Of a DNA stretch of 64,000 bases, positions 5,566 through 20,900 are shown piece after piece. The stretch covers positions 1-64,000 of the IMG/VR virus record IMGVR_UViG_3300035670_000102; one strand, written 5' to 3'. The first letter of the stretch is position 1, and the number at the start of each line of letters is the position of its first letter. The position numbers were made by a program, and so were the translations under genes. Under the pieces are notes generated by a model that ran no database searches, was not told the origin of the DNA, and saw nothing but the letters and a program-made list of their open reading frames with translations. The DNA is from a virus.

Positions 5566-6033
5566 ATGGGAACTCGCTCACGCATCGGTATTGAAATGCC
5601 TGACCACACTGTGGTTAGCGTCTACTGCCACTGGGATGGTTATGTATCCCACAATGGTAAGATTCTGGTAGAACACTATCAGAACCGTGAAGATGTACAA
5701 GAACTCATCGACGGTGGATCTATGAGTCATCTGCGTACTCGTGGAAGTTGGAATCATGATATTCCCCTCCGTGATGAGAACGGAGAGTATGTTCATGATG
5801 CTGCAGGTTATCTTACCTATGAGAATGATCGTGAACCTCAACCACTCTATCATTCAGAACGTGGTGAGGAAGTTAGCGTTCAACATACCAGTTTCGATGA
5901 GTTTGTTTCTGGAAATCTTGGTGGTGAAGAGTATGCTTACCTCTTCGACCTGAATGATAACTGGAAAGCTTTCAAGATCAACTGGAAGGGACCTGTGGAG
6001 CGTGTTGAGATCCCAAACTATGTGACAGCCTAG
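5566..6033 (+). CDS. Conserved phage hypothetical protein (YCHWDGY family)
   Basis: MGTRSRIG...SVYCHWDGY...G..L..HY...EEYAYLF pattern, common in phage early regions. Confidence 0.8.
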   Translation: MGTRSRIGIEMPDHTVVSVYCHWDGYVSHNGKILVEHYQNREDVQELIDGGSMSHLRTRGSWNHDIPLRDENGEYVHDAAGYLTYENDREPQPLYHSERGEEVSVQHTSFDEFVSGNLGGEEYAYLFDLNDNWKAFKINWKGPVERVEIPNYVTA

Positions 6034-6080
6034 GAACTGGAACACAGGGGCATCAGAGGAGATCCTGGTGCCCTTAGAAT
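6022..6080 (+). promoter_or_regulatory. Early promoter: GTGACAG-N8-CTGGAAC, 31 nt, TAGAAT
   Basis: Geometry identical to the other copies. Confidence 0.65.
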
Positions 6081-6103
6081 GAACAAGTCAACCAATCAAA
6101 CTC

Positions 6104-6367
6104 ATGAGAACTCCAAAGGTTGCTGACTTCTCAAATGTTCATGCTACAGAAAAAGCATTGAACTACATCAAGATCGTTAATTTTGCAAGAGCTCGTGGAA
6201 TGTCCTATAGTGATCTTTCGGAAGCTCTAGATCTCAGTGAGCGAACTGTTCGCAGATACTATTGGGGAATCCATAGTATCAATGAGTTTCCTAGAAAGAG
6301 TCGGGAACAGGTTAGAATTGGTGCTTCTGTTCCAATTCATCTAGCACGACCTGGATTCAAACTGTGA
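6104..6367 (+). CDS. Helix-turn-helix DNA-binding protein
   Basis: RARGMSYSDLSEALDLSERTVRRY is a classic HTH pattern. Confidence 0.75.
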   Translation: MRTPKVADFSNVHATEKALNYIKIVNFARARGMSYSDLSEALDLSERTVRRYYWGIHSINEFPRKSREQVRIGASVPIHLARPGFKL

Positions 6368-6404
6368 TATAATGGGAGCGGTAGTTCGCCTAACTCCCAA
6401 ACCT

Positions 6405-6489
6405 GGGGCGGTGGTGGAATCGGTAGACACACCAGACTTAAAATCTGTTGGGCATTACGCCCGTGAGAGTTCAAGTCTCTCTCGCCCTA
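6405..6489 (+). tRNA. trnL: tRNA-Leu(UAA), long variable arm, no encoded CCA
   Basis: Acceptor GGGGCGG/TCGCCCT+A, D arm TGGTGGAATCGGTAGACAC, anticodon loop CTTAAAA, variable arm GGGC-ATTAC-GCCC, T arm GAGAG-TTCAAGT-CTCTC. Confidence 0.95.
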
Positions 6490-6533
6490 TTGGCACAATT
6501 CTGTGCCATTTGTCCACTTTGTTACTATAAAAC

Positions 6534-6761
6534 ATGACTCGTCAATTTGATGTGAACTCCTCTGCAATTTCTGCTCTGAGCATGAATGAGGATCTGGTGA
6601 CTGTCACCTTTTCATCTAACGGCAAAGAGTATAGCTACCGTGCTCAAGATCCTGGAACCTTTGTTGCTGATCTGGAGCAGGTGATCGCTGATCCTGAGGG
6701 TTCTGTGGGTCGGTTTGTCAATCAGGCAATCCGCACCGACAAGACCCTTGTGGAGGTCTGA
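6534..6761 (+). CDS. KTSC-domain-like protein
   Basis: VNSSAISAL...LVTVTFSSNGKEYSY...GSVGRFVNQAIR matches the KTSC pattern. Confidence 0.7.
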   Translation: MTRQFDVNSSAISALSMNEDLVTVTFSSNGKEYSYRAQDPGTFVADLEQVIADPEGSVGRFVNQAIRTDKTLVEV

Positions 6762-6764
6762 CAA

Positions 6765-6808
6765 CTGGCACAGGGAGGGTTTCTGACCCTCCCTCTTCTT
6801 GGTATTCT
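6765..6808 (+). promoter_or_regulatory. Early promoter: CTGGCAC, 31 nt containing a terminator-like hairpin, TATTCT
   Basis: Half-site 6765-6771; hairpin AGGGAGGGT/ACCCTCCCT; -10 at 6803. Confidence 0.6.
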
Positions 6809-6832
6809 ACGTTTGTCCCTGAGACACATCCT

Positions 6833-6979
6833 ATGGACTTCGACACTGATTTCTGGTCTGAGATTCAAGATGCTCCTGGTGAGATCTTCGACATTCCTGA
6901 ACTTCGTGAACTTGATGAAGACTATCAGAATGATGAAGCAACTTGGAACGCATTTCTTAACAGCAACTGGGACTTCTAA
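6833..6979 (+). CDS. Acidic hypothetical protein (48 aa)
   Basis: MDFDTDFWSEIQDAPGEIFDIPELRELDEDYQNDEATWNAFLNSNWDF; first of a stop/start-coupled chain. Confidence 0.65.
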   Translation: MDFDTDFWSEIQDAPGEIFDIPELRELDEDYQNDEATWNAFLNSNWDF

Positions 6980-7131
6980 TGATGACACTGACTTCTCTGA
7001 CTTTTGAGGAACTGGATGCAATTCTGGCACTCATTGAGTTTCATGATGATTGGGACGAAGTGAGTGAGAAACTGAATGTAGATGTTTCTGCACTCTATGA
7101 AAAACTCTCTGAAATGAGGGATGAAGTATGA
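6979..7131 (+). CDS. Acidic hypothetical protein (50 aa)
   Basis: MMTLTSLTFEELDAILALIEFHDDWDEV...; TAATG coupling. Confidence 0.65.
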   Translation: MMTLTSLTFEELDAILALIEFHDDWDEVSEKLNVDVSALYEKLSEMRDEV

Positions 7132-7262
7132 TTACTGCAATCGTGGGTGGCGTGATTCTCGCCACCTTTGGCATCATGTTCTACCTTGATGATCGTATGG
7201 GTGGCGGTCTTTATGATCCCGACCCTACTGCTTTTGACCGTTATCGGAGAAATCGCAAATGA
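7128..7262 (+). CDS. Single-TM small protein (44 aa)
   Basis: MITAIVGGVILATFGIMFYLDDRMGGG...; ATGA coupling. Confidence 0.6.
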   Translation: MITAIVGGVILATFGIMFYLDDRMGGGLYDPDPTAFDRYRRNRK

Positions 7263-7387
7263 TGCCTGACACTTACAACTTCGCTGGCGACACTGTGACA
7301 GTTCTCGGACTGGTCGGTGTCATCTCCACTGGCATCATCCTGGTGCTATGCTTCACTCGTTACTTCAATTCTCCTCTTCGGAAATGA
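7259..7387 (+). CDS. Single-TM small protein (42 aa)
   Basis: MMPDTYNFAGDTVTVLGLVGVISTGIILVLCFTRYFNSPLRK; ATGA coupling. Confidence 0.65.
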   Translation: MMPDTYNFAGDTVTVLGLVGVISTGIILVLCFTRYFNSPLRK

Positions 7388-7584
7388 TCTTCCAAGTTAC
7401 TGACATTGAGTTTGACTTTGAGTCTGATGATGAGGAACTCGATGCTTTCAATCGTGGTATCATCACAGATGAAACCATCGGTCAAATCTGGGAGGCAGAT
7501 GATGAGGAAGATCTAATCGAAGAGATCACATGCGCTACAGGTTGGTGCATCAAATCCATTGATTATCGTCACATTCTCTCATGA
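7384..7584 (+). CDS. Acidic hypothetical protein (66 aa)
   Basis: MIFQVTDIEFDF...EDLIEEITCATGWCIKSIDY; start moved to the coupled ATG 7384. Confidence 0.7.
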   Translation: MIFQVTDIEFDFESDDEELDAFNRGIITDETIGQIWEADDEEDLIEEITCATGWCIKSIDYRHILS

Positions 7585-7727
7585 CTAAAGAACTTCTGAT
7601 CGCTCAACTTCGTCTTGGTAAAAATGGGAACGACATCCTTTCGATTCTTGATGCACTGCACAATGGGATGGACAGTGGTGAATCTAGTCAAGATAATGTT
7701 CCAACCCTAGACGAGATCCAGTTCTAG
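7581..7727 (+). CDS. Hypothetical protein (48 aa)
   Basis: MTKELLIAQLRLGKNGNDILSILDAL...; ATGA coupling. Confidence 0.6.
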   Translation: MTKELLIAQLRLGKNGNDILSILDALHNGMDSGESSQDNVPTLDEIQF

Positions 7728-7740
7728 AAACTCGACGAGA

Positions 7741-7800
7741 TGTGCCACATCATCTAGTGGCACATTCAATCTCGACGAGACCTGCATCATCATCTAGATT
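7741..7800 (+). promoter_or_regulatory. Early promoter: TGTGCCAC-N8-GTGGCACA, 31 nt from GTGGCAC to TAGATT, with an ATCTCGACGAGA operator in the spacer
   Basis: Perfect 8-bp IR at 7741-7764; -10 at 7795; CTCGACGAG at 7731 and 7771. Confidence 0.75.
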
Positions 7801-7822
7801 ACACACATCGAGATCGAGATCC

Positions 7823-8011
7823 ATGCAAACCGCATTCATCACTCCTATTTCACGCAAGGCAAAGAATCGCTTTGCAAATCTTATGGACAACAATCCTCAA
7901 TGTATTGTCGAACAACACAAGGGAGGAAAACTGTTCATTGCATCTCAGAATCGTAATAATTTCTTCTGGATGCAACTTGACAAAGATCCTGATTGGATGC
8001 TACAATTCTAA
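7823..8011 (+). CDS. Hypothetical protein (62 aa)
   Basis: MQTAFITPISRKAKNRFANLM...; start moved to the ATG downstream of the promoter. Confidence 0.7.
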   Translation: MQTAFITPISRKAKNRFANLMDNNPQCIVEQHKGGKLFIASQNRNNFFWMQLDKDPDWMLQF

Positions 8012-8012
8012 C

Positions 8013-8145
8013 ATAAGGGAGGAAGGGGTTTGCCTCCCGCTTGATGAAAGTCACCCTGCGCGAATGAGTACAGATAATTATAGCATATGGGCGTAGGTTC
8101 TATGGGATGTTCATAGGTTGGGGTGGTGCCCAACCTATTTTTTTT
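8013..8145 (+). ncRNA. Candidate small RNA A (~130 nt) with 5' pseudoknot and intrinsic terminator
   Basis: TTGACA(7977)-18-TACAAT(8001) promoter; stem GGGAGG/CCTCCC whose loop GGGT can pair with ACCC(8053); terminator 8113-8145; only a 10-codon ATG ORF inside. Confidence 0.55.
8113..8145 (+). terminator. Intrinsic terminator
   Basis: ATAGGTTGG-loop-CCAACCTAT followed by a long T run. Confidence 0.85.
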
Positions 8146-8178
8146 ATATAATCATATAATACTAGTGTTATATTGTAT

Positions 8179-8242
8179 TGCAGGTTCGGTGGCGATGTGT
8201 TGTTCAGTAGGGATACCCTTCCCCCTTTGGTGCTGGTTGTCC
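8179..8242 (-). ncRNA. Candidate small RNA B (conserved core)
   Basis: Minus strand: TATTTT-4nt-GGACAA...AGGGGGAAGGGTATCCCT...TCGCCACC...CCTGC; paralogous to 9157-9223. Confidence 0.5.
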
Positions 8243-8280
8243 ATCTAAAATACCATCAAACCGCCATCAAACCCAGATGC

Positions 8281-8341
8281 TGTGCCAGTTCGCAAGGTGG
8301 CACAATGGGTCTGGACGGGGGTGGTTTCTGCGCCGTATTGT
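8281..8341 (+). promoter_or_regulatory. Early (probably bidirectional) promoter: TGTGCCA-N10-TGGCACA, 32 nt from GTGGCAC to TATTGT
   Basis: IR at 8281-8304; -10 at 8336; leftward -10 at 8247-8252. Confidence 0.7.
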
Positions 8342-8365
8342 GTGCTCAGTTCACACCACACCACC

Positions 8366-9100
8366 ATGCTGAACTTCACCAAAGGCAACGCCAAACTGGG
8401 CAAGCAAACCCTGATCTTTAATCTTCCTGCAGGTAAAACCTGCCCCGGTGCATTATTCTGCAAGTCTTTTGCTGTTGTTGATGACAATGGCAAGCGTACC
8501 ATTCAAGACGGCGAGCACACTATCTTCCGTTGCTTCGCTGCATCTTCAGAGGTGCAATATGATGCAGCGTTTGAGAATCGCGCCAACAATTTGCGCCTGA
8601 TTGTTGATGCTCTGCAGAATGGATCTGCTGCAGATCTTATCAACCAAGGCATCCAAGAGTACCGCACAAAGAATACTAAACTCGTGAGAATCCATGAGTC
8701 TGGTGACTTCTTCTCTGGCGCTTATCTTGATGCTTGGATTGAAGTTGCACAGCGCAATCCTGACCTAAAGTTTTATTGCTACTCCAAGAGTTTGCAACTG
8801 TTTCTGAACTTTAATCTTCCTGCTAACTTCTACTTCACCGCATCATATGGTGGCAAGTGGGATCACCTAATTGATGCAGGATTCTTTAAGCGTTACGCTA
8901 AAGTCTTCATGACCGAAGGTGATGCTAACTCTGCAGGGTTAGAAGTTGATCACGACGATTCACACTGTTTCGGTGATAAACCGTTTGCGCTGTTAGTGCA
9001 TGGAACTCAACCTAAAGGTTCTATCTGGGGTGCTGCAATCCGTGCCCGTCGTTCACAACATCAGTTCAGCGGTTACAGTAAGAAACCCGTTGCAGTGTAA
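8366..9100 (+). CDS. GP88-family protein (Cys-motif protein)
   Basis: GNAKLG...FNLPAGKTCPGA..C...CFA...VRIHESGDFFS..Y...W...FYCYSKS; start at ATG 8366 after the leader. Confidence 0.75.
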   Translation: MLNFTKGNAKLGKQTLIFNLPAGKTCPGALFCKSFAVVDDNGKRTIQDGEHTIFRCFAASSEVQYDAAFENRANNLRLIVDALQNGSAADLINQGIQEYRTKNTKLVRIHESGDFFSGAYLDAWIEVAQRNPDLKFYCYSKSLQLFLNFNLPANFYFTASYGGKWDHLIDAGFFKRYAKVFMTEGDANSAGLEVDHDDSHCFGDKPFALLVHGTQPKGSIWGAAIRARRSQHQFSGYSKKPVAV

Positions 9101-9109
9101 GGTATACTT

Positions 9110-9136
9110 AAGGGGGGCAATCGCTCCCCTTTCTTT
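9110..9136 (+). terminator. Intrinsic terminator (G-run/CAAT-loop family)
   Basis: AAGGGGGGC-AATC-GCTCCCCTT-TCTTT. Confidence 0.75.
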
Positions 9137-9156
9137 ATACTCATTTGTAACAATTA

Positions 9157-9223
9157 ATTCCGCGCAGGAGGGGTGGCGACCTTTTTCGTCTTCAGGGCTA
9201 CCCCGCCCCTCTCCTGATTGTCC
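9157..9223 (-). ncRNA. Candidate small RNA C (conserved core)
   Basis: Minus strand: TAGGAT-4nt-GGACAATCAGGAGAGGGGCGGGGTAGCCCT...GGTCGCCACCCCTCCTGCGCGGAAT; outer stem CAGGAG/CTCCTG. Confidence 0.5.
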
Positions 9224-9263
9224 CCATATCCTACAGACACCACAGACCCATAAAACCCCAGCA

Positions 9264-9338
9264 GTGGACAGTTCCACCACTGGCACAAGCTGGTTGATCA
9301 GTGCCCATGATGCTGTAGGATTCTCTCAGTTCACACCA
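9264..9338 (+). promoter_or_regulatory. Early (probably bidirectional) promoter GTGGACAG-N8-CTGGCAC...TAGGAT with leader CTCAGTTCACACCAC
   Basis: IR at 9264-9286; TAGGAT at 9316; leftward TAGGAT at 9228-9233. Confidence 0.65.
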
Positions 9339-9345
9339 CTGAACC

Positions 9346-9645
9346 ATGTTCACCTCTCTCACCGATCGCAACACGTTTGGCGCTACGTACCGCTGGGCGA
9401 TCCTGTCGGTTCTGCCGATGGATGATGGCAGCGGTTGCACCGATCAGGATGGGATGCGCCCCACCGACATTAACAACGCTCTGGGGATGCCAAATGAGGC
9501 CCGCACAGCCCTCTCCCTGACCCTTAAGCGTATGGCTGCAGAAGGGCTGATTAAGCGCCATGAGCTGGGCGCCCACTGGGTTGAGTACACTCGCCTGCTA
9601 CCGCTCCGCAAGCGCGAGCGCGTCGCCCGCTGGATTCAAGGGTGA
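9346..9645 (+). CDS. Winged-helix DNA-binding protein (MarR/HxlR-like)
   Basis: MRPTDINNALGM...ALSLTLKRMAAEGLIKRHELGAHWVEYT. Confidence 0.7.
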   Translation: MFTSLTDRNTFGATYRWAILSVLPMDDGSGCTDQDGMRPTDINNALGMPNEARTALSLTLKRMAAEGLIKRHELGAHWVEYTRLLPLRKRERVARWIQG

Positions 9646-9714
9646 TTCAAACGGGGGGCACCAACCGCCCCCCATCCGTGCTAGGATTCTCTCAGTTCAC
9701 ACCACACCACTCCG

Positions 9715-9969
9715 ATGAACTTTTCCTCTCTGACCTTTTCCGATCACAGTGTCATCAAAGGTGGCACAAAAGCACAACATACCTTTGAGAATGGTTGGGC
9801 GATCAGTGTTGTAGCGGGTCCAAAAAATTCGGGACTCTACGGTGACATTCAGCACGACACTTTTGAGGTTGCTGTGATTCGCCCAAATGGTAACATGCTG
9901 GAGGATGTTATCTGCTGGCAAACTCCAGTTCAGATCACAACATTGATGCACCTGATTGAGATGCTCTGA
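9715..9969 (+). CDS. Conserved phage hypothetical protein (84 aa)
   Basis: FENGWAISVV...GLYG...FEVAVI pattern; preceded by the repeated TAGGATTCTCTCAGTTCACACCAC cassette. Confidence 0.75.
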   Translation: MNFSSLTFSDHSVIKGGTKAQHTFENGWAISVVAGPKNSGLYGDIQHDTFEVAVIRPNGNMLEDVICWQTPVQITTLMHLIEML

Positions 9970-9978
9970 GGTATCATA

Positions 9979-10002
9979 AAGGGGGAGCAATTCTCCCCCC
10001 TT
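9979..10002 (+). terminator. Terminator-like hairpin (G-run/CAAT family)
   Basis: AAGGGGGAG-CAATT-CTCCCCCCTT. Confidence 0.6.
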
Positions 10003-10020
10003 CCTATCATCACCACTACC

Positions 10021-10203
10021 ATGGCACTATTCTCTCAGGCAACAGATCTTAAAACCCACCAAACAATATGGGTCGGCACTAATGTTCTCAAAGGTAAATC
10101 GCAAGGTAACTCTCACACTCGCAACTGGGATTATGATGGTCTCACTGCAGTAGAGTTAGCTTATCTGCATACTGATTATCACGGCAACGTTAATCCTTCC
10201 TGA
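10021..10203 (+). CDS. Hypothetical protein (60 aa)
   Basis: ORF track; AC-rich leader. Confidence 0.65.
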   Translation: MALFSQATDLKTHQTIWVGTNVLKGKSQGNSHTRNWDYDGLTAVELAYLHTDYHGNVNPS

Positions 10204-10204
10204 C

Positions 10205-10342
10205 ATGTATCCTGCTTTCCTTTCTAACATTCAAATCGAAGAACTTGAGACCTTCGGTGTAATTGAAATGACTGAAGAATTGTTTGACGCTATGATGAAT
10301 TGGTGTCAAGGTGACGGTCCAATTGTAGAAAATCTAGACTAG
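10205..10342 (+). CDS. Acidic hypothetical protein (45 aa)
   Basis: MYPAFLSNIQIEELETFGVIEMTEELFDAMMNWCQGDGPIVENLD. Confidence 0.55.
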   Translation: MYPAFLSNIQIEELETFGVIEMTEELFDAMMNWCQGDGPIVENLD

Positions 10343-10394
10343 ATTGCGCACACATTAATCTCGACGAGATCGCACACATTAATCTCGTCGAGAT
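10331..10394. repeat. Three ATCT(A/C)GWC(T/G)AGAT palindromes, two of them in a 24-bp tandem repeat
   Basis: AATCTAGACTAGATT at 10331; CGCACACATTAATCTCGWCGAGAT x2 at 10347 and 10371. Confidence 0.85.
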
Positions 10395-10430
10395 ACACAC
10401 ATAACACACATTCACATCTAGATTCACATC

Positions 10431-10595
10431 ATGAACAACAATCAAAAGCAAATTAATTCAATTGGTTTCACAATTAAATATCAAACACCATATAACAATT
10501 GTGAATGGCGCACACAATCATTCACTACAATAGAAGAGGCAAAAAGAATGATAGAGTTCTATAAGTCTTGTGGATCACCTGCTGAATTAGTATAA
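10431..10595 (+). CDS. Hypothetical protein (54 aa)
   Basis: MNNNQKQINSIGFTIKYQTPYNNCEWRTQSFTTIEEAKRMIEFYKSCGSPAELV. Confidence 0.65.
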   Translation: MNNNQKQINSIGFTIKYQTPYNNCEWRTQSFTTIEEAKRMIEFYKSCGSPAELV

Positions 10596-10854
10596 TAAAA
10601 GAATAAAAGAATGAAGAATAAAAGAATGAAGAATAAAAGAATAAAAGAATAAAAGAATAAAAGAATAAAAGAATGAGAGTATAAAGAATAGAGAATGAAT
10701 CTTAAGTAGTTCTTTATTCTTTATACTTTACAATCCTAATTGATTCTTTATTCTTTATACTCTCCATTCAGAAGTGCATTGTGATTCTTATAGTCAGTGG
10801 TGTGGTTAATTCTAATCACAATGCACTTCTCAATGGACAGTTATTCTTTATACT
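10594..10854. repeat. AATAAAAG microsatellite plus nested inverted repeats
   Basis: Tandem 8-mers at 10594-10674; complementary TTCTTTATTCTTTATAC at 10710 and 10744; perfect 17-bp IR at 10770-10786/10814-10830. Confidence 0.9.
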
Positions 10855-10855
10855 T

Positions 10856-11047
10856 TGCAATCGCAATCGGTTCTTGATTTTAATTCAGGTGCAATCGCAA
10901 TCGGTTCTGTGTTTGTGTCAGGTGCAATTGCAATTGATTCTGTATTTGTGAGACCTTAAGGTGCAATCGGTTCTTAATTCTAATTCAGGTGCAATCGCAA
11001 TCGGTTCTTGATTCTTTACACTTTGCAATCGTTGTTTGATTCTAATT
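10856..11047. repeat. Six ~33-bp-period direct repeats with core TGCAATCGCAATCGGTTCT
   Basis: Copies start at 10856, 10890, 10923, 10962, 10990 and 11024 (some degenerate). Confidence 0.85.
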
Positions 11048-11142
11048 AACATTCAAACTTGCCAATGCTGGTATCACCTCCGGTGCCGATCCGTCAAGCG
11101 TTTAACCCATAAGCGTCGCCGATCAAACGGATCTGCTTTTTT

Positions 11143-11195
11143 GTATCCTGGGATACCGTTTGCCCCTTGTGGGATCGGACGCTGGCGCTTACAGT
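11143..11195 (+). promoter_or_regulatory. NtcA-type box GTATC-N4-GATAC upstream of a TTGTGG-17-TACAGT promoter
   Basis: GTA-N8-TAC at 11143-11156 preceded by a T tract; -35 at 11167, -10 at 11190. Confidence 0.5.
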
Positions 11196-11204
11196 GAGCG
11201 GAGC

Positions 11205-11223
11205 GAACCTTGAAAACCGAATA
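11205..11223 (+). promoter_or_regulatory. Cyanobacterial rRNA-type boxA antitermination element
   Basis: GAACCTTGAAAACCGAATA versus cyanobacterial rrn boxA GAACCTTGA(A/C)AACTG(C/A)ATA; sits just after the predicted TSS. Confidence 0.65.
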
Positions 11224-11304
11224 GGGCGATGGGCGGAGCGCGGGTGGCGCTGCGCTTCGCGGGCGACGTGTCGGGCGGGATCCCACGCGCCACCATCGCG
11301 CTAT
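11221..11304 (+). ncRNA. GC-rich structured leader with pseudoknot
   Basis: Outer stem ATAG-G-GCGAT/ATCGC-G-CTAT; 9-bp hairpin 11233-11260; loop GGTGGCGC is complementary to GCGCCACC at 11287-11294. Confidence 0.55.
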
Positions 11305-11361
11305 TTAATACTTTCAAGATTCGCCATTAGTTACACTTTCACCCTACACTTTCACAGTCCC

Positions 11362-11670
11362 ATGACTATTCTTGTCGGACAAGTTGAAACTCTCATGCCT
11401 GAACTTTTGCAGGCAATGAGTGACGCTGACGCTGCAAAGCGTCGCGTTGATGATCTCAAAGCGCAGATGATTGCGCTGATTGAAGAACCTCAAACGGTCA
11501 AAACTTGCTGGGGTTCGGTTACACTTAACAAGGGCAAACGCTCAGTCAAAGTAACTGACAAGGCGTTAAATGCACAGATCACACTACTCAAAGAGAATGG
11601 AATCTCTGAGGGTAAGTGTCAAGAATCCATCTCCGATCCGTTCATCACGGTTCGAAAGTTGGACCGCTGA
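11362..11670 (+). CDS. Hypothetical protein with N-terminal coiled coil (102 aa)
   Basis: MTILVGQVETLMPELLQAMSDADAAKRRVDDLKAQM...; start moved to ATG 11362. Confidence 0.7.
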   Translation: MTILVGQVETLMPELLQAMSDADAAKRRVDDLKAQMIALIEEPQTVKTCWGSVTLNKGKRSVKVTDKALNAQITLLKENGISEGKCQESISDPFITVRKLDR

Positions 11671-11679
11671 GTTACACTT

Positions 11680-11710
11680 AGGGGGGAGACAATCCTCCCC
11701 CTTTCTTTTT
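11680..11710 (+). terminator. Intrinsic terminator (G-run/CAAT family)
   Basis: GGGGGAG-ACAATC-CTCCCCC-TTTCTTTTT. Confidence 0.8.
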
Positions 11711-11735
11711 ACAAACCACACCACACTTTTACGCC

Positions 11736-11921
11736 ATGATGACACTTTCTCTCTGCGATGAGCGTATAGTTTATGAAGCAATCTTCCGCCATGTTGAACA
11801 CTTAGCGGAACAGAATTGGGGCAGTTCCGATTCTATTCTGGCAGCAAAAGTTGCCGTCGATTGCTTCCCCAAACTTGGGTATCCTGTGCCCCATTGGATT
11901 ACTGTTCTGGCACAATCCTGA
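11736..11921 (+). CDS. Hypothetical protein (61 aa)
   Basis: ORF track; AC-rich leader. Confidence 0.6.
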   Translation: MMTLSLCDERIVYEAIFRHVEHLAEQNWGSSDSILAAKVAVDCFPKLGYPVPHWITVLAQS

Positions 11922-11958
11922 TCAGTTAGTTACACTTTCCACCCTACACTTTCGACCC

Positions 11959-12162
11959 ATGCGCATCACCACACCGCTGCACTTTTCTGAGATTTTCTAC
12001 TTTAATTTCAACCCTAAGTGTGCAGAATGGGATGAGATTTTCGGTCTTAGCGTAGGTAAACTCTACGTGGGTTTGTATAACAAATGCCTCAGCGTTGGTA
12101 TTTTAAACTCTAACGGTGGGTTAGAGTCAAAAAACCAGGTTAAAGTTCGCGTTCTTCCCTGA
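11959..12162 (+). CDS. Hypothetical protein (67 aa)
   Basis: Start at ATG 11959, after a leader duplicated from 11329-11361. Confidence 0.6.
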   Translation: MRITTPLHFSEIFYFNFNPKCAEWDEIFGLSVGKLYVGLYNKCLSVGILNSNGGLESKNQVKVRVLP

Positions 12163-12167
12163 CATTC

Positions 12168-12194
12168 AAGGGGTGACATTCTCACCCCTTTCTT
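12168..12194 (+). terminator. Intrinsic terminator
   Basis: AAGGGGTGA-CATTC-TCACCCCTT-TCTT. Confidence 0.75.
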
Positions 12195-12219
12195 CACACA
12201 AACCACACAGGTCAGCACA

Positions 12220-12639
12220 ATGCGCCACCCTATCATCCGTCACAATGCCCGCCCCGTTTATAGTTTCGCTGGCATCGTTGATGCAATCGAAACCGCTAAA
12301 TCTAAGGGTCTTAAGCGTATCACAATGCGCTTCGATCAGTTTATAGCGAAGCCCTCTAAGTATGATGGCAAGGTTTATATTTTCTCCCATGAAAAAGAAT
12401 TGAATCAGTGGGGCACAATGAGCAACGTTTACCTGGGTTGGATCACTGCAACTGAAACCAATTTGGGTGAAATGGCACTCATTCAAGCGGTGCAATCCGC
12501 TGCGTCTGACCCATACGCCGCAGCCAAACTCTACGGGATGCACACCGGAACCTGTTCATGTTGCGGTCGTGAATTAACCAATTCCCTGTCAATTGCGTTG
12601 GGGATTGGTCCTATTTGCAGGGAAAAGTTCGGACTCTAA
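12220..12639 (+). CDS. DUF6011 zinc-binding domain protein
   Basis: YG..TGTCSCCGRELTNSLSIALGIGPICREKF. Confidence 0.8.
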   Translation: MRHPIIRHNARPVYSFAGIVDAIETAKSKGLKRITMRFDQFIAKPSKYDGKVYIFSHEKELNQWGTMSNVYLGWITATETNLGEMALIQAVQSAASDPYAAAKLYGMHTGTCSCCGRELTNSLSIALGIGPICREKFGL

Positions 12640-12647
12640 GTTATATC

Positions 12648-12672
12648 GGGGGAGGCGCAATCCTCCCCCTTT
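12648..12672 (+). terminator. Intrinsic terminator ending the early region
   Basis: GGGGGAGG-CGCAAT-CCTCCCCC-TTT. Confidence 0.75.
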
Positions 12673-12906
12673 ATATACCGATCAGCAGTTCTTATCATTC
12701 GTTCGTTCGTGATTGGCAGTCCTTATCGGTCGGGGGGGCGGTCGCCGCGGCCCCATGGGGCGGTTTATAATGCACGGGTCCCCTTAGGCTACAAAGTGTT
12801 ACGAAAGCGATCGATATATAACACTCAAGATAAAAAAATTCCCGCCATAAAAAATTCACAAATAGGTTGATATATAAAATGAAAAAATTAATAGTAATAT
12901 ATCTTG

Positions 12907-13083
12907 ATGGAAAAAAAATTCGGAAAAAATTTTCAGCCCCTACAAGTCGATCAAATTAATGGAGATTATTATATCATTATCCCCGAATGGATAGCGAATG
13001 AACTTTCTTGGTATGAAGATACTGAGATTGAACTTAAGGTTGAATCAAATGAACTTATACTGAGAGAAAAAGAAGATGAGTAA
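12907..13083 (+). CDS. AbrB/MazE/SpoVT-like regulator (58 aa)
   Basis: Translated by hand: NGDYYIIIPEWIANELSWYEDTEIELKVESNELILRE. Confidence 0.7.
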   Translation: MEKKFGKNFQPLQVDQINGDYYIIIPEWIANELSWYEDTEIELKVESNELILREKEDE

Positions 13084-13267
13084 AATTTATCACATTTATG
13101 CAAAAGATAAATGTATATTTCATTCTATTAGTGAAGATGAATTTCAATTGACTTGGAAAACATTGCAATATATGATTGGTATTATTGAGAGTAATTACAC
13201 ACCCAAAGATTTTTCATATGAGGAATTGATCATAAACAAAGAAACTTGCTTAAACTCTTCATATTGA
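13076..13267 (+). CDS. Hypothetical protein (63 aa)
   Basis: ORF track; overlaps the upstream stop. Confidence 0.75.
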   Translation: MSKIYHIYAKDKCIFHSISEDEFQLTWKTLQYMIGIIESNYTPKDFSYEELIINKETCLNSSY

Positions 13268-13314: not shown

Positions 13315-14079
13315 ATGGCTAAAGGATTTACAGTAAAAGCAAAAACGCCCATGGCTTCACAGCAACAGCAACAAGAGGAATGGGACTATAATCTCGCAAG
13401 AGAAATGATTAAGGGCAAATCAATTGTATTTTGTCTTCCTGGAAGAGGAGTTTCTTATACATACTTGAAAAATTTTGTTCAACTTTGTTTTGATCTTGTT
13501 CAGAACGGAGCGAGTATTCAAATTTCTCAAGACTATTCATCCATGGTTAATTTTGCTCGTTGCAAATGTCTTGGAGCAAATGTACTACGTGGCCCAGATC
13601 AACTTCCATGGGACGGAAAATTAAATTATGATTATCAACTTTGGATTGATTCGGACATCGTGTTCGACACTTCAAAGTTTTATCAGTTAGTCTTAATGGA
13701 TAAGGATATTGCCGCAGGATGGTACTGCACTGAAGATGGTCATACGACTTCAGTTGCACATTGGTTAGAAGAAGATGATTTCCGCAGTAATGGTGGAGTC
13801 ATGAATCACGAAACTCTTGAGAGTATCTCAAAGCGTCGCAAACCATTTACTGTCGATTACACTGGATTTGGTTGGCTTCTGATTAAAAACGGAGTATTTG
13901 AACATCCAGAAATGAAGTATCCTTGGTTTGCTCCAAAAATGCAAGTTTTTGAATCTGGAGATGTTCAAGATATGTGTGGAGAAGATGTAAGTTTCTGCCT
14001 CGATGCAAAAGAAGCTGGCTTTGAAATTTGGTGCGACCCACGGGTACGAGTCGGTCACGAAAAAACAAGAATTATCTGA
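13315..14079 (+). CDS. GT-A fold (family 2-like) glycosyltransferase
   Basis: VNFAR, LWIDSDIVF (DxD), TGFGWLLIK, GEDVSFC...G..IW.D...GH motifs. Confidence 0.8.
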   Translation: MAKGFTVKAKTPMASQQQQQEEWDYNLAREMIKGKSIVFCLPGRGVSYTYLKNFVQLCFDLVQNGASIQISQDYSSMVNFARCKCLGANVLRGPDQLPWDGKLNYDYQLWIDSDIVFDTSKFYQLVLMDKDIAAGWYCTEDGHTTSVAHWLEEDDFRSNGGVMNHETLESISKRRKPFTVDYTGFGWLLIKNGVFEHPEMKYPWFAPKMQVFESGDVQDMCGEDVSFCLDAKEAGFEIWCDPRVRVGHEKTRII

Positions 14080-16020: not shown

Positions 16021-17934
16021 ATGCCTTTCACTAAGTTTACCAATTTAGATTTTGATCAGATAAAAACTTCGATTAAAGATTATCTTCGTGCGAATTCTAA
16101 TTTTACCGATTTTGATTTTGAAGGATCGAATTTTTCAGTTTTAATTGATACCTTAGCTTATAATACTTATATAACGGCCTTTAATTCAAACATGGTCGTA
16201 AATGAATCATTTTTAGATTCAGCAACTCTAAGAGAGAATGTGGTTTCTCTTGCAAGAAATATTGGATATGTTCCCAAATCCAGGCAGTGTGCAGAAGCCT
16301 TAGTATCCTTTACAATTCAAACAGATTCTGAAACACCAACAGTTTCTTTACAAGCAGGACTTGTATGTGTTGGTTCAATAGATGGAAGTACGTATATTTT
16401 TTCAATTCCAGAAAATGTCTCTAAAAATGTCGTAAACGGGACAGTTTCCTTTGATAATTTGACAATTTATCAAGGAACATATTTAACTAAGCAATTTACT
16501 GTAGATGGATCGTTAGATCAAAAATTTATTTTAGATAATCCATATATTGATACAAAAACAATTGTTGCTCATGTAAAAGGACCAAGTGATAGTGGTCTGG
16601 GCACAAAATATTCTTTAGTTGACAATATTGTAAAAATTGATGAGTTATCTGAAATTTATCTAATACAAGAAGTTAAGGATGAAAAATATCAACTTATTTT
16701 TGGTGATGGTAGATTTGGTAAAAAATTAGAAAATGGAAGCATAATTACTGTAAGTTACATAGTCACTGATGGCAAATCTGGAAATGGTGCTAAAGAATTT
16801 TCATTTGCGGGAACATTTAAAAATGCAAGTGATGTTTTAATCGTACCAACAAATACAGTTAATGTAACTACAAGTTCTTCTTCTGTAAATGGATCAGATA
16901 TAGAACCGATTGACTCAATCAAATATTTTGCACCTAGATTATATTCGTCCCAATATAGGGCAGTTACTGCAAAAGATTATGAAGCTATAATTCCGCAACT
17001 ATATCAAAATACAGAATCAGTTTCTGTAGTTGGTGGTGAAGAAATGGATCCCCCAGAATACGGATCGGTAACAATCAGTATTAAACCAAAAAATGGAATT
17101 TATGTTTCTGATTTTGATAAACAACAACTTTTGTCAAAATTAAAACAATATAGCCTTACTGGAATTAATCAAAAAATTGTAGATCTTAAAATTTTATACG
17201 TTGAAATAGATTCATCAGTTTATTATGATTATTCTAAAGTGTCCAGTGTTGAGAATTTAAAAACAAAGGTTACATCTCTTTTAACCACATATTCAAAATC
17301 TGTAGATTTAAATAAATTTGGTGGTAGATTTAAATATAGTAAAATATTACAAGTAATTGATAACAGTGATATTTCAATTACATCTAATATAACAAAGGTA
17401 AGAATACGTAGAAATCTAAAAGTTGCCATAAATGACTTTTCTCAATATGAGCTTTGTTATGGTAACAGATTTCATATAAAGCAAAATGGTTATAATATTA
17501 AATCCACAGGATTTACAATTGCAAATTATCCAAATACAATTGTATATTTTACAGATACTCCAAATACGGATGGAAAAACAGGAGTTTTATCAATTATTAA
17601 ACTTCCAAATATTTCATCATCATCTTCAAATAATAAACCAAACATTTTAGTTCAGTCAGCAGGAACTATAGATTATGAAAAAGGAGAAATTATGATTAAT
17701 ACTATTAAAATAATTTCTACCGAACTTCCTAATGATGTAATAGAAATGCAAGCATATCCAGAATCAAATGATGTCATAGGATTAAAAGATTTATATCTAG
17801 AATTTGATATTTCAAAAAGTCAAATAAATATGGTAAAGGATGTTATTGCATCTGGAGAGGATATTTCCGGAGTAGTTTTTTCAAAAGATTCTTATAGATC
17901 AAGTTATTCAAATGGGGAGATAACAAGAGGATAA
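16021..17934 (+). CDS. g6: Baseplate wedge subunit gp6
   Basis: LDFDQIK...FTDFDFEGS...LAYNT...ESFLDSA...RAVT..DYE. Confidence 0.95.
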   Translation: MPFTKFTNLDFDQIKTSIKDYLRANSNFTDFDFEGSNFSVLIDTLAYNTYITAFNSNMVVNESFLDSATLRENVVSLARNIGYVPKSRQCAEALVSFTIQTDSETPTVSLQAGLVCVGSIDGSTYIFSIPENVSKNVVNGTVSFDNLTIYQGTYLTKQFTVDGSLDQKFILDNPYIDTKTIVAHVKGPSDSGLGTKYSLVDNIVKIDELSEIYLIQEVKDEKYQLIFGDGRFGKKLENGSIITVSYIVTDGKSGNGAKEFSFAGTFKNASDVLIVPTNTVNVTTSSSSVNGSDIEPIDSIKYFAPRLYSSQYRAVTAKDYEAIIPQLYQNTESVSVVGGEEMDPPEYGSVTISIKPKNGIYVSDFDKQQLLSKLKQYSLTGINQKIVDLKILYVEIDSSVYYDYSKVSSVENLKTKVTSLLTTYSKSVDLNKFGGRFKYSKILQVIDNSDISITSNITKVRIRRNLKVAINDFSQYELCYGNRFHIKQNGYNIKSTGFTIANYPNTIVYFTDTPNTDGKTGVLSIIKLPNISSSSSNNKPNILVQSAGTIDYEKGEIMINTIKIISTELPNDVIEMQAYPESNDVIGLKDLYLEFDISKSQINMVKDVIASGEDISGVVFSKDSYRSSYSNGEITRG

Positions 17935-17935
17935 T

Positions 17936-20900
17936 ATGATAAAAACAGGATTTGAAAACAGAGTAAAAGTACAACAAATAATTCAAAATCAACTTCCAGA
18001 ATTTATTTTGGATGAGAGTCCAAAAACTATTGACTTTTTAAAACAGTATTACATATCACAAGAGTATCAGGGTGGTCCGATTGATATTTCGGATAATCTG
18101 GACCAATACTTAAATCTGGATAATTTAACCCCAGAGGTTATTCAGGGATCGACTACTTTATCTTATAATATTTCAGAAGCTGTTGGGATTGTTACTGTAT
18201 CATCAACAAAGGGATTTCCGTCTAAATATGGTCTTTTGAAAATTGACGATGAAATTATTACTTACACGGGAATTACTACAAACACATTTACTGGATGTAT
18301 TCGTGGTTTTAGTGGAATAACAAACTATCACAAAGATTTAGAATATGAAGAGTTAGTTTTTTCATCAACAAGTAGTTCTTCACATTTTGCAGAATCTGAA
18401 GTAGAAAATCTTAGTGTATTATTTCTTCAAGAATTTTATAAAAAATTAAAATATACTTTAGCTCCAGGTTTAGAAAATATTGATTTTGTATCAAATTTAA
18501 ATGTTGGCACATTTCTTAAAAATGCCAGAAGTTTTTACCAATCAAAAGGGACAAAAGAATCATTTAGAATACTTTTTAATATTTTATATGGAGTAAATCC
18601 AAAAATTATTGATTTGGAGAATTTCCTTATAAAACCTTCTGATGCAAAATATATCAGAAGAGAAGTAATTTTGGTGGAACAAATAACTGGAAATCCACTG
18701 AGATTAATCGGTCAAACTTTAAAATCTAAACAAAGTGATGATTTATCAGCTTCAATATCTGAAGTTGAAATTGTTACTAGAGGTGGAAAAAGCTATTATA
18801 AATTTTTTATTTTTGTCGGATATGATGATACCCAAACTACTTCATTTTCTAACTTTACAATAACACCAAATACTAAATGTATTGATAAGATCTTATCTGG
18901 TGATACAGTTATTACGGTTGATTCTACTTTAGGATTTCCTGATTCTGGTATTTTATATGCAAATGATCAGAAAATTAATTATTCTAGTAAATCAATAAAT
19001 CAATTTTTTGGTTGCTATACTATTGGATATAATGCAATTTTATCAGATATTGATAAAACTACTCCTATTATATCAGATTATACCTATTATGGATATGAAA
19101 ATGGAGATACATCTAAAGAAGTTGTTGTAAGAATAACAGGAGTATTATCAAATTTTAAAATTGATTCTACAGATTACAGCTTAGTAACTGGAGATGTAAT
19201 TACTGTAAAGAGTTTAGGAGACAATATTTCTCCCAATCAAAGTGGAAAAAATGCAACATATAAGCAAATAAATGCAAATAGTTGGATTTATAATACAAGT
19301 TCTAGATACCAATTAGATTCTTTTTCGGAATCTTTTGCGTTTACAAAGTCTAGTGTACATAAATCAAGTTTGAAAGTAAATGATTACGTAGAATTTTTAC
19401 AAAGAAATACAGAAATTCCCGTAGCTGGTTTGGATAATGTAAGGATTACAAACATTATAGACAATAAAAAAGTATTTTTTGATACTAATATCTCTTCTTT
19501 AAATTCAAGAAAAAAATATGATATTAGAAGAAAAGTTAAAAAATCTAATAGCACATTAGTGCCGATAGGAATTGGTACTATAAACTTAAATAATAAAGTT
19601 TTTTCGGATGTGCAAAATGTTTACTCTGATGGAGATGAGTACTTATATGTTGCTTCAAACTCTTTACCATCTTATGAAATTAACTCGGATATTTTTGAAT
19701 ATGTTGTAAGTTCTATACCAAATTCAGGTCTTAATAATTCTACAGGAAAATATTCAATATTAGAATTTAGTGATTATATTTCATTTTTAACTGGAGATGA
19801 AGTTTATTATAGTTTTTCTGATCAACCAATAAGCGGATTATCTGAAGGAAAGTATTATGTAAAATTATTGTCTAACAGGCAATTGCAGTTGTTTTCCGCC
19901 AGAAACTTTATTGATACGAATAAGTATCTAGAGTTTTCTAATGTTTTACCTACAGGAAACCATACTTTTACTTTATTATCTCAAAAAGAAAAAATAATTT
20001 CACCCCAAAAGATATTAAAAAAAATTAAGTTAAACCCAGAGATTAGTGATAAAATTGGAGATGATACTCTTCCAGGATCATCTGGAATTTTGATTAATGG
20101 TGTTGAAATATTTAATTATAAATCTAATGATAAAATTTATTATGGACCACTAGAAAAAGTAAGAGTTTTGAATTCTGGTAGTGATTATGATGTAATTAAT
20201 CCACCAAAAATTGAAATTTCGGGAAATGCTCTGGTACAACCTATAGTTCAGGGATCTATAACTTCAGTTTATGTAGATCCACAGGAATTTGATATAGATG
20301 TTTTTATCACAATAAGTGTAACGGGTGGAAACGGTAGTGATGTTTCATTAAAACCCATAATTGTAAAAAATAGAAGAGAAATAGAATTTGATGCAAGACA
20401 AACCACAAGAGGTGGTGGAATAGATGTAGTTAATGAAAGAATTACTTTTTTAAATAATCATAATTTATTTACGGGCCAAGAAATAATATATGATACTAAT
20501 GGAAATGATGAAATTGGTATTGGTTCATTTAGGGGAGTAAATTATGATCAAGGAAATCTGGTCGATAATGCAATTTACTATGCAAAAGTATTAAATGATA
20601 GGACCATTCAAATACACCAAACAAAGAGTGATGCAATAACTGGTGTAAACACAGTAGGTTTTACAACGATTGGAACTTCTGGAATTCAAAAATTCAAAAC
20701 TTCCATAAGAAATACATTATCAGAAATTAAAGTTTTAAATGGTGGAAATGGATTTACCAATAGAGAATTAATTGTAAAGTCATCTGGGATATCGACAAGC
20801 AAACATACAATTAATTTCAAAAACCATGGATTTTTGACTGGAGAAATAATTACCTACACATATACATCTTCACCTGTAGTTGGATTATCATCTGAAAATA

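What the first reader, a model, noticed from the sequence alone, without database searches (positions are those of the whole stretch)
11205..11223. Host rRNA-type boxA antiterminator at the 5' end of a phage early transcript
Seen: GAACCTTGAAAACCGAATA lies 9 nt after the -10 of TTGTGG-17-TACAGT. The four downstream ORFs have no obvious promoters of their own and are punctuated by U-tailed hairpins at 11680, 12168 and 12648. Established: cyanobacterial rrn boxA reads GAACCTTGA(A/C)AACTG(C/A)ATA; boxA recruits NusB/NusE; lambda nut sites use boxA; cyanobacteria lack Rho. Inference: a T4-like cyanophage may co-opt host Nus antitermination, lambda-style, to read through intrinsic terminators.
Basis: partly seen in the sequence, partly recalled or inferred. 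Interest (0 to 1): 0.8.

Follow-up and report, generated by a model that had tools for sequence, protein, structure and literature searches.

The report
Host boxA inside a cyanophage leader RNA
A freshwater T4-like cyanophage starts one small early operon with an exact copy of its host's ribosomal-RNA "boxA" signal, built into a conserved, tightly folded, previously undescribed leader RNA. It probably borrows the host's Nus transcription factors as phages lambda and T7 do, but in bacteria that lack the terminator protein Rho, and no experiment shows this yet.

Summary
GAACCTTGAAAACCGAATA lies at 11205-11223, 9 nt after TTGTGG-17-TACAGT. It is followed by four small ORFs and three hairpin-plus-U sites.

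The window is a T4-like cyanomyovirus, and its closest isolate is Synechococcus phage S-SRM01. S-SRM01 carries the same unit at the same genomic position.

The 12-nt core equals the cyanobacterial ITS boxA. The exact 19-mer also occurs in true rrn leaders, in cyanobacterial CRISPR leaders and in many phage or mobile-element leaders.

Twenty distinct homologous leaders keep a boxA (10 variants, all of the form GAACCT[T/A]GA) just after a promoter with a fixed 17-bp spacer.

New here: boxA is part of a ~123-nt structured RNA that covaries strongly (25 of 47 pairs with double changes). In this fold an "anti-boxA" strand pairs with boxA (P1), and P2 closes a three-way junction holding an invariant hairpin. 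The RNA is not in Rfam. It occurs once per phage and was not found in 151 sampled cyanobacterial genomes.

Best reading (about 0.5): a Nus-dependent antitermination leader of the rrn/T7 type, not the lambda type. No N protein or boxB was found.

Function is untested. This scan has noted boxA-led phage leaders before on other DNA.

The parts
11085..11142 (+). Conserved upstream hairpin ending in a U6 run. It may act as an insulating terminator in front of the unit.
   Evidence: Fold: dG -15.8, but z is only -1.1. The sequence is conserved in homologues including S-SRM01.
11143..11156 (.). GTA-N8-TAC palindrome (NtcA-like), 33 nt upstream of the -10.
   Evidence: Kept in 10 of 12 homologous upstream regions, at the same spacing where checked (window and S-SRM01). 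The position is not the canonical one for an NtcA-activated promoter (22 nt, from established knowledge).
11167..11195 (+). Sigma70-type promoter: -35 TTGTGG, 17-nt spacer, -10 TACAGT.
   Evidence: In homologues the hexamers are kept (TTGACC, TTGCGG or TTGTGG; TACAGT, TAAGTT, TAATGT, TATAGT or TAGATT). The spacer sequence varies freely but its length stays 17.
11205..11223 (+). boxA: core GAACCTTGAAAA at 11205-11216, plus a D4-like tail CCGAATA. It starts 3-4 nt from the predicted transcription start (about 11202).
   Evidence: PMC8461337.
11203..11324 (+). Structured leader RNA with four helices.
- P1: 11203-11207 and 11209-11215 pair with 11312-11318 and 11320-11324 (boxA 5' part with anti-boxA).
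- P2: 11219-11224 and 11226-11232 pair with 11293-11299 and 11301-11306.
- P3a: 11233-11243 pairs with 11250-11260 (variable hairpin).
- P3b: 11262-11275 pairs with 11281-11291 (hairpin with the invariant sequence GUGUCGGGCGGGAUCCCACG).
   Evidence: The minimum-free-energy fold has dG -66.9 and z -4.35. Twelve homologues fold the same way when folded independently. Covariance model R1 and alignment A5 give 95.6% of cells paired, and 25 of 47 pairs with changes on both sides, against 4-7 in the slid controls. Many G-U pairs, and a much weaker reverse-strand score (36.8 against 150 bits), indicate an RNA read from the + strand.
11362..11670 (+). ORF1, 102 aa: a long N-terminal helix followed by a beta region. 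It is the ORF most often found behind the leader (a 102-103-aa relative in most contigs; S-SRM01 and L127 carry a 96-aa ORF with no detectable similarity, and L023 a different ORF). Function unknown.
   Evidence: more than 150 clusters, all named hypothetical. AlphaFold2 mean pLDDT is 79.5, and there is no significant PDB match.
11680..11703 (+). Terminator-like hairpin T1, followed by UCUUUUUAC.
   Evidence: A hairpin at the same place follows ORF1 in 6 of 6 homologous loci, and the stems covary.
11736..11921 (+). ORF2, 61 aa. Variable cargo.
   Evidence: The cargo ORFs differ between phages.
11959..12162 (+). ORF3, 67 aa. Variable cargo.
12170..12188 (+). Terminator-like hairpin T2, followed by UUUCUUCAC.
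12220..12639 (+). ORF4, 139 aa, with DUF6011 at the C-terminus.
   Evidence: Pfam PF19474, E 2.6e-15. phrog_4046.
12648..12669 (+). Terminator-like hairpin T3, followed by UUUAUAUAC. Probably the end of the unit, because strong promoter-like sites for the next genes follow at 13148 and 13264.

Best explanation
The 19-mer is a working copy of the host's ribosomal-type boxA. It is placed 3-4 nt from the start of an RNA that host RNA polymerase makes from a conserved sigma70-type promoter.

As the RNA emerges, boxA is single-stranded for about the next 100 nt of synthesis. In that time it is bound by host NusB and S10 (NusE). Together with NusA and NusG, these convert the polymerase to a fast, termination-resistant form. 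The modified polymerase then reads through the hairpin-plus-U sites that separate the small ORFs of this modular cassette array.

Once the anti-boxA strand (11312-11324) has been made, any leader not held by Nus factors closes into a rod (P1 plus P2) capped by a three-way junction. That fold probably protects the 5' end and limits the time window for loading. The invariant hairpin P3b may bind a further host or phage factor.

Shown:
- the sequence identity to boxA
- the position behind the promoter
- the conservation across related leaders
- the RNA fold with covariation
- the conserved hairpins between the ORFs

Inferred:
- the transcription start site
- Nus binding
- terminator read-through
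- the role of P1
For: - The core is identical to the cyanobacterial ITS boxA (PMC8461337).
- The exact 19-mer sits about 110 nt upstream of 16S in true rrn leaders (L048, L069; in L111 about 150 nt by the 515F marker) and in ITS regions (L058, L075, L086, L096).
- The same 19-mer follows promoters of cyanobacterial CRISPR arrays and other non-rRNA units, so boxA is used outside rrn in this Rho-less phylum.
- Twenty distinct leaders keep a boxA. The 10 variants all have the form GAACCT[T/A]GA. At least four of them, including T-to-A forms, also occur in cyanobacterial genomes, and a closely related T-to-A form sits in an ITS.
- boxA itself stays fixed while its pairing partner varies. This points to a constraint from a trans-acting factor.
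- The leader keeps 71% nucleotide identity with S-SRM01, although ORF1 is no longer recognisably similar.
- Hairpin-plus-U sites follow ORF1 in 6 of 6 loci.
- Precedent: T7 has a genetically proven boxA behind its early promoters (PMC3709561).
- T7-like cyanopodoviruses carry promoter, hairpin and a boxA within one base of the Synechococcus-type ITS form at their left end.
Against: - No transcript, binding or read-through data exist.
- 15 of the 19 boxA nucleotides are paired in the conserved fold. NusB/S10 need single-stranded RNA.
- The unit is only about 1.5 kb. Its hairpins have C-interrupted U tracts, so they may be stabilisers rather than terminators.
- A similar hairpin at 9110 follows a gene outside the unit that has no boxA.
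- In E. coli the rrn system acts mainly on Rho-dependent terminators (established knowledge). What the Nus-boxA complex does in Rho-less cyanobacteria is unknown.
- TACACT words (which fit TAnnnT) lie before ORF1 and ORF3, so internal transcription starts cannot be excluded.
Confidence: 0.5

Rival explanations
1. The leader is mainly a post-transcriptional element. The P1-P2 rod begins at +2 and would protect the mRNA 5' end from RNase E/J, or be cut by RNase III as in the lambda N leader and T7 early RNAs. On this reading boxA matters little for termination; at most it recruits Nus factors as an RNA-folding chaperone.
For: - P1 starts 1-2 nt from the predicted 5' end and is kept in all 20 leaders (92% of cells paired). 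It has two compensatory positions: U:A to A:U at boxA position 7, and G:C to U:A at the flank.
- The quasi-continuous helix of about 25 bp is long enough for RNase III.
Against: A stabilising stem would be free to drift in sequence. Here the 5' strand is frozen at the host boxA sequence while only the 3' strand varies. The same motif leads unstructured phage and CRISPR leaders elsewhere.
Confidence: 0.2
2. The folded RNA itself is the antiterminator, as with HK022 put or Bacillus EAR. The three-way junction with the invariant P3b hairpin would bind RNA polymerase or a partner protein, and boxA would be only an accessory.
For: - It is a strongly covarying, about 95-nt junction immediately after the promoter.
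- A 20-nt invariant P3b sequence is shared by the most divergent homologues.
Against: - One homologue (L023) lacks P3b and most of P3a but keeps boxA, P1 and P2.
- There is no Rfam match, EAR included.
Confidence: 0.12
3. The unit makes an abundant short RNA that ends at the U-rich stretch after P2. This RNA would titrate host NusB/S10, or expose the anti-boxA strand, and so depress host rRNA synthesis.
For: The very stable P2-P3 hairpin block (dG -50.4) is followed by a U-rich stretch. Examples are UAUUUAAUACUUUC in the window and UAUUUUUAUAUUUUU in L007.
Against: - The U tract is poor in most homologues (1-2 U among the 4-6 nt between P2 and P1).
- boxA would be sequestered in the finished RNA.
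- The leader is always followed closely by an ORF, with a conserved spacer between them.
Confidence: 0.1
4. A captured scrap of host ITS or CRISPR-leader DNA with no function in the phage.
For: The region is richer in G+C than the rest of the phage (42-50% against about 30%). The motif is identical to host sequences.
Against: - It is conserved across 20 diverged leaders at a fixed distance from a conserved promoter.
- It takes part in a covarying fold.
- No other rRNA-derived sequence lies nearby.
- The fold was not found in 151 sampled cyanobacterial genomes.
Confidence: 0.03

Closest known systems
rrn antitermination signals (boxB-boxA-boxC of rrn leaders; boxB-boxA-D4 of the cyanobacterial 16S-23S ITS) acting with NusB, S10, NusA and NusG
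   Same: The boxA core sequence is identical. The extended 19-mer is found word for word in true rrn leaders of other phyla. The site is promoter-proximal and precedes structured RNA.
   Different: - There is no boxB hairpin upstream, because boxA is at the very 5' end.
- The tail reads CCGAATA rather than the ITS CTGCATA.
- boxA is paired with a dedicated anti-boxA strand.
- It leads protein-coding ORFs.
- The host lacks Rho, the main known target of the E. coli complex.
Phage T7 early boxA, downstream of promoters A0-A3 (Savalia et al. 2010, as cited in PMC3709561)
   Same: Both are virulent phages with host-RNAP early promoters followed by a host-type boxA. Neither has an N protein.
   Different: T7's boxA has genetic proof of function; this one has none. 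T7's is not known to sit in a boxA-sequestering three-way-junction RNA. The host phylum differs.
Lambda nutL/nutR (boxA, spacer, boxB, plus N protein)
   Same: The order is boxA followed by hairpin(s), just after an early promoter, ahead of terminators.
   Different: There is no N-like arginine-rich protein and no boxB-type pentaloop hairpin. The lambda boxA is a weakened variant that needs N, whereas this one matches the host consensus.
HK022 put RNA and the Bacillus EAR RNA (cis-acting antiterminator RNAs)
   Same: A conserved folded RNA of about 100 nt at the start of an operon that contains intrinsic terminators.
   Different: There is no sequence or Rfam similarity. Those RNAs do not contain a boxA.
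boxA upstream of CRISPR arrays and suhB (Stringer et al. 2020; Baniulyte et al. 2017, PMC5725501)
   Same: boxA is used outside rRNA operons. Here the identical 19-mer was seen in cyanobacterial CRISPR leaders.
   Different: Those cases are explained by anti-Rho action, which cannot apply in cyanobacteria.

Membership tests
rrn-type boxA (NusB/S10-binding element) | Sequence matches the boxA consensus of the host clade | tested here: met
   The core GAACCTTGAAAA is 12 of 12 identical to the cyanobacterial ITS boxA. The 19-mer matches the ITS 19-mer at 17 of 19 positions (PMC8461337). The exact 19-mer occurs in true rrn leaders and ITS regions of other phyla.
rrn-type boxA (NusB/S10-binding element) | Lies on the sense strand, promoter-proximal, in a transcription unit | tested here: met
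   It lies 6-9 nt after a conserved -10 with a fixed 17-bp spacer in all homologues examined. The transcription start itself has not been mapped.
rrn-type boxA (NusB/S10-binding element) | Conserved while the flanks diverge | tested here: met
   20 distinct leaders carry 10 boxA variants, all of the form GAACCT[T/A]GA. The promoter spacer, P2 and P3a vary freely.
rrn-type boxA (NusB/S10-binding element) | Single-stranded and accessible to NusB/S10 | tested here: inconclusive
   15 of 19 nucleotides are paired in the conserved final fold. During transcription they stay free until the partner strand, about 105 nt downstream, has been made.
rrn-type boxA (NusB/S10-binding element) | Binds NusB-S10 and confers terminator read-through | not testable with these tools
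   This needs EMSA or ITC, in vitro transcription, or reporters.
Lambda-type nut site | A boxB hairpin recognised by an N-family protein encoded by the phage | tested here: not met
   Hairpins follow boxA, but no Pfam or PHROG hit to N or any antiterminator was found among the unit's ORFs. ORF1's predicted fold has no significant PDB match.
Known cis-acting antiterminator RNAs and any Rfam family | Match to a curated covariance model | tested here: not met
   There is no Rfam 15 match at gathering score, nor at E up to 10, in 10400-13000.
Intrinsic terminators (T1-T3) | G+C-rich stem directly followed by a U tract, conserved in position | tested here: met
   Termination activity itself was not tested, and the U tracts are interrupted by C.

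The most novel reading that the evidence does not exclude
The leader is a new class of cis-regulatory phage RNA in which a host boxA is gated by a dedicated anti-boxA helix. It would be a kinetic switch that reads the free pool of NusB/S10, and so the host's ribosome-synthesis state. On that basis it would decide whether a mobile array of cyanophage gene cassettes is read through or shut off; alternatively it would act as a Nus decoy. It would also be the first handle on what the boxA-Nus system does in bacteria without Rho.
Probability: 0.2. Interest if true: 0.8.

Novelty: new variant of a known kind. Interest (0 to 1): 0.6.

Why it matters
Cyanobacteria keep boxA and the Nus factors but have no Rho. 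What this machinery does there is therefore an open question.

A short, self-contained phage unit (promoter, boxA, terminator-like hairpins) is present in a cultured phage-host pair: S-SRM01 and Synechococcus sp. KCZYC6. That makes the question directly testable.

The unit also defines a well-supported RNA family absent from Rfam. In addition, two unrelated cyanophage families (T4-like and T7-like) place a host-type boxA behind early promoters, which suggests that hijacking Nus factors is a general cyanophage strategy. No paper in the searchable library links boxA with cyanophages. That library is incomplete.

Tried and rejected
- **Rfam:** searches at gathering score and at E up to 10 gave nothing at the locus.
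- **Contamination by host rRNA operons:** rejected. No 16S or 23S marker lies near any viral hit, and the window has only a tRNA-Leu.
- **Further boxA or leader copies:** none in this phage, in the complete S-SRM01 genome, or in three other contigs. This is therefore not a genome-wide early-transcription device.
At the variable loop position the homologues L002 and L007 give A·A and C·A mismatches (sequences). It is not supported.
- **ORF1 as an N-like or RNA-binding factor:** no Pfam hit and only a weak PHROG hit (phrog_434, E 7.6e-4). All of more than 150 relatives are named hypothetical. The AlphaFold2 model's best Foldseek hits are HU/IHF at E 0.5 and TM 0.33, which is not significant.
- **Leader in host genomes:** covariance model R1 found nothing in 151 sampled cyanobacterial genomes, searched with strict filters.
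- **Literature:** no held paper joins boxA with cyanophages. The S-SRM01 paper mentions no boxA, promoter or terminator. Stringer et al. 2020 is not held in the library.
- **NtcA site:** the palindrome is conserved, but it lies 33 nt from the -10 instead of the canonical 22 nt. It is left as a side note.

Full report
**What is there**

The sequence reads TTGTGG (11167-11172), a 17-nt spacer, TACAGT (11190-11195), 9 nt, then GAACCTTGAAAACCGAATA (11205-11223). The 13-nt core occurs once in the window and once in the whole 92,965-b virus record.

Downstream lie four small ORFs: 11362-11670, 11736-11921, 11959-12162 and 12220-12639. Three G+C-rich hairpins with U-rich tails lie at 11680-11703, 12170-12188 and 12648-12669. 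Their folding energies are -14 to -19 kcal/mol, with z-scores of -3.5 to -4.1.

The next genes have their own strong promoter-like sites at 13148 and 13264. The unit is therefore about 1.5 kb long.

**What the phage is**

Pfam finds gp6 and gp8 baseplate proteins, a T4 neck protein, a T4-type terminase, gp20 portal, gp23 capsid and UvsW. The capsid protein is 84% identical to that of Synechococcus phage S-SRM01, a freshwater member of the Kyanoviridae, and this is the best match among 50,697 phage records.

S-SRM01 has the same unit at the same place, about 3.5 kb upstream of the baseplate wedge genes. It consists of an unannotated stretch of about 300 nt followed by four small ORFs.

The neighbouring gene (13315-14079) is 89% identical at the protein level between the two phages. 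The first ORFs of the unit are no longer recognisably similar (E 0.09). Yet the non-coding leader keeps 71% nucleotide identity. The leader is thus under stronger constraint than the genes it precedes.

**Is it a boxA?**

- Five cyanobacterial genomes, and a sample of 151 more, show GAACCTTGAAAACTGCATA in several copies per genome. Where rRNA markers were checked, these copies lie 235-550 nt after the 16S 3' end, which is the ITS boxA plus D4. PMC8461337 gives boxA as GAACCTTGAAAA and D4 as CTGCATA.
- The phage core is identical to this boxA, and only the tail differs.
- The exact phage 19-mer sits about 110 nt before 16S in true rrn leaders of other phyla (L048, L069; in L111 about 150 nt by the 515F marker) and in ITS regions (L058, L075, L086, L096).
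- In cyanobacteria the same 19-mer follows promoters of CRISPR arrays (L034, L050, L066, L081, L105) and of other units (L130, L131, L139). boxA is therefore used outside rrn in this Rho-less phylum.

**Conservation**

I collected leaders from four sources:
- exact-motif scans
- a search with ORF1
- S-SRM01
- covariance model R1, used to confirm and align them

Together they gave 20 distinct homologous leaders. All keep a boxA at the same place. There are 10 variants, all of the form GAACCT[T/A]GA. At least four of these variants, including the T-to-A change, also occur in cyanobacterial genomes; a closely related T-to-A form, with the CTGCATA tail, sits in an ITS.

The promoter hexamers and the 17-bp spacer length are kept, while the spacer sequence varies. 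Each phage has exactly one copy, including the complete 240-kb S-SRM01 genome.

**New anatomy: boxA is part of a folded RNA**

The window leader folds with dG -66.9 kcal/mol and z -4.35. Twelve homologues, folded independently, adopt the same architecture:
- **P1:** the boxA 5' part pairs with a conserved strand about 105 nt downstream (11312-11324), here called "anti-boxA".
- **P2:** the boxA 3' end plus a variable stem.
- **P3a:** a variable hairpin.
- **P3b:** a hairpin with an invariant 20-nt sequence.

On the model-based alignment of the 20 leaders:
- 95.6% of cells form standard pairs, against 84.4% in shuffles.
- 25 of 47 pairs show changes on both sides, against 4-7 when the partners are slid by 1-3 columns.
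- P1 is 92% paired and has two compensatory positions. One is boxA position 7, where U:A becomes A:U.

The alignment was fitted to the model, so these counts lean towards the structure. The independent folds agree with them. Frequent G-U pairs and a much weaker reverse-strand score show that this is an RNA read from the + strand.

The RNA has no Rfam match and was not found in 151 sampled cyanobacterial genomes.

**The cassette array**

Behind the leader, the ORFs differ between phages. Nearly every ORF is followed by a module of the form GTTACACTT, hairpin, TTCTTTCCA. The hairpin stems covary; examples are GGGGGGAG, GGGAGGC, GGGGTGA and GGGCGGC.

**Mechanism**

The most economical reading is that host RNA polymerase starts near 11202. 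boxA emerges first and is bound by NusB-S10. The modified polymerase then reads through the hairpin sites. Precedents are rrn operons, lambda nut sites and the genetically proven boxA behind the T7 early promoters (PMC3709561).

Independent support comes from T7-like cyanopodoviruses. S-SBP1 carries promoter, hairpin and boxA in the non-coding left end of its genome, and the same conserved leader region (upstream hairpin to boxA) matches in S-CBP3, S-CBP4, S-RIP2, KBS-P-1A and S-TIP37. In the related viral contigs the boxA equals the GAACCTTGACAACTGCATA form seen in a small cyanobacterial genome (G142); the isolate S-SBP1 differs from it at one base.

Points against, or left open:
- Nothing has been measured.
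- boxA is paired in the final fold.
- The hairpins may be stabilisers rather than terminators.
- A similar hairpin at 9110 follows a gene with no boxA.
- E. coli rrn antitermination mainly counters Rho, which cyanobacteria lack (established knowledge).
- "Lambda-style" is not supported, because no N-like protein or boxB was found.

I put the antitermination reading at about 0.5. Much higher (about 0.85) is the narrower claim that this is a functional boxA-type element in a real structured leader RNA.

**Novelty**

That phages borrow boxA is known. This scan has also noted boxA-led leaders in other phages. New here are:
- its presence in cyanophages, whose hosts lack Rho
- the conserved RNA family that sequesters boxA with an anti-boxA strand
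- the link to a modular cassette array

I class it as a new variant of a known kind.

Noticed in passing
L331:321-460 (Synechococcus phage S-SBP1, MT424636, left end); also L214, L227, L239, L247 and others: T7-like cyanopodoviruses carry a TATACT -10, a long hairpin and then a host-type boxA in the non-coding left end of the genome, before gp01. S-SBP1 was read directly; the same leader region matches by BLAST in S-CBP3, S-CBP4, S-RIP2, KBS-P-1A and S-TIP37. The boxA is GAACCTTGACAACTGCATA in the viral contigs and GAACCTTGACAACTTCATA in S-SBP1. This is an rrn-like boxB-boxA order at the position where T7 has its boxA. I found no description of it in the held library.
   Followed up: partly
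L034, L050, L066, L081, L105 (Nostoc, Calothrix, Anabaena and an uncultured cyanobacterium): The exact 19-mer lies between a promoter and the first repeat of CRISPR arrays in cyanobacteria, which have no Rho. The anti-Rho explanation given for enterobacterial CRISPR boxA cannot apply here.
   Followed up: partly
L012, L013, L017, L018, L022, L024; L014, L021; L019, L025; L036-L038 and other loci; L040, L043, L056, L072, L073, L082, L089, L104: The same 19-mer directly follows TATAAT boxes in many gut Clostridia phage or mobile-element contigs. It is also present at eight or more loci of one Acidimicrobiales MAG, always after CCGCTCCACACCT. These contexts were not analysed.
   Followed up: no
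window 11143-11156: A GTA-N8-TAC (NtcA-like) palindrome is conserved in 10 of 12 homologous upstream regions. It lies 33 nt before the -10, one helical turn further than in canonical NtcA-activated promoters.
   Followed up: partly
window 11326-12690; L124:5600-6180; L148, L150, L151, L154: The intergenic modules (GTTACACTT, covarying hairpin, TTCTTTCCA) flank interchangeable small ORFs. Two junctions in the window (11327-11361 and 11925-11958) look like the same module with the hairpin missing. This suggests cassette shuffling.
   Followed up: partly
window 12697-12720 and L124:6651-6672: A short conserved motif (ATTCGTTCGTG...CAGT), followed by a very G+C-rich stretch, marks the 3' edge of the unit in both the window and S-SRM01.
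   Followed up: no
window 6000-12800 against 14000-64000: G+C is 42-50% in the small-ORF region and about 27-35% in the structural-gene region. The break is sharp, near 12.8 kb.
   Followed up: no
window 10856-11040: An iteron-like array of units of about 33 bp (core GGTGCAATCGCAATCGGTTCT) lies just upstream of the unit. The sequence next to it (TAATTAACATTCAA) is shared with L009, L023 and S-SRM01.
   Followed up: no
window 17936-29914 and 31534-39009: Two giant ORFs (3992 and 2491 aa) lie among the baseplate genes (gp6-like at 16021-17934, gp8-like at 29933-31528).
   Followed up: no
window 9110-9131: A hairpin of the same style as T1-T3 (dG -19.4, z -5.7) follows the GP88-family gene at 8282-9100, which lies outside the boxA unit.
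   Followed up: partly
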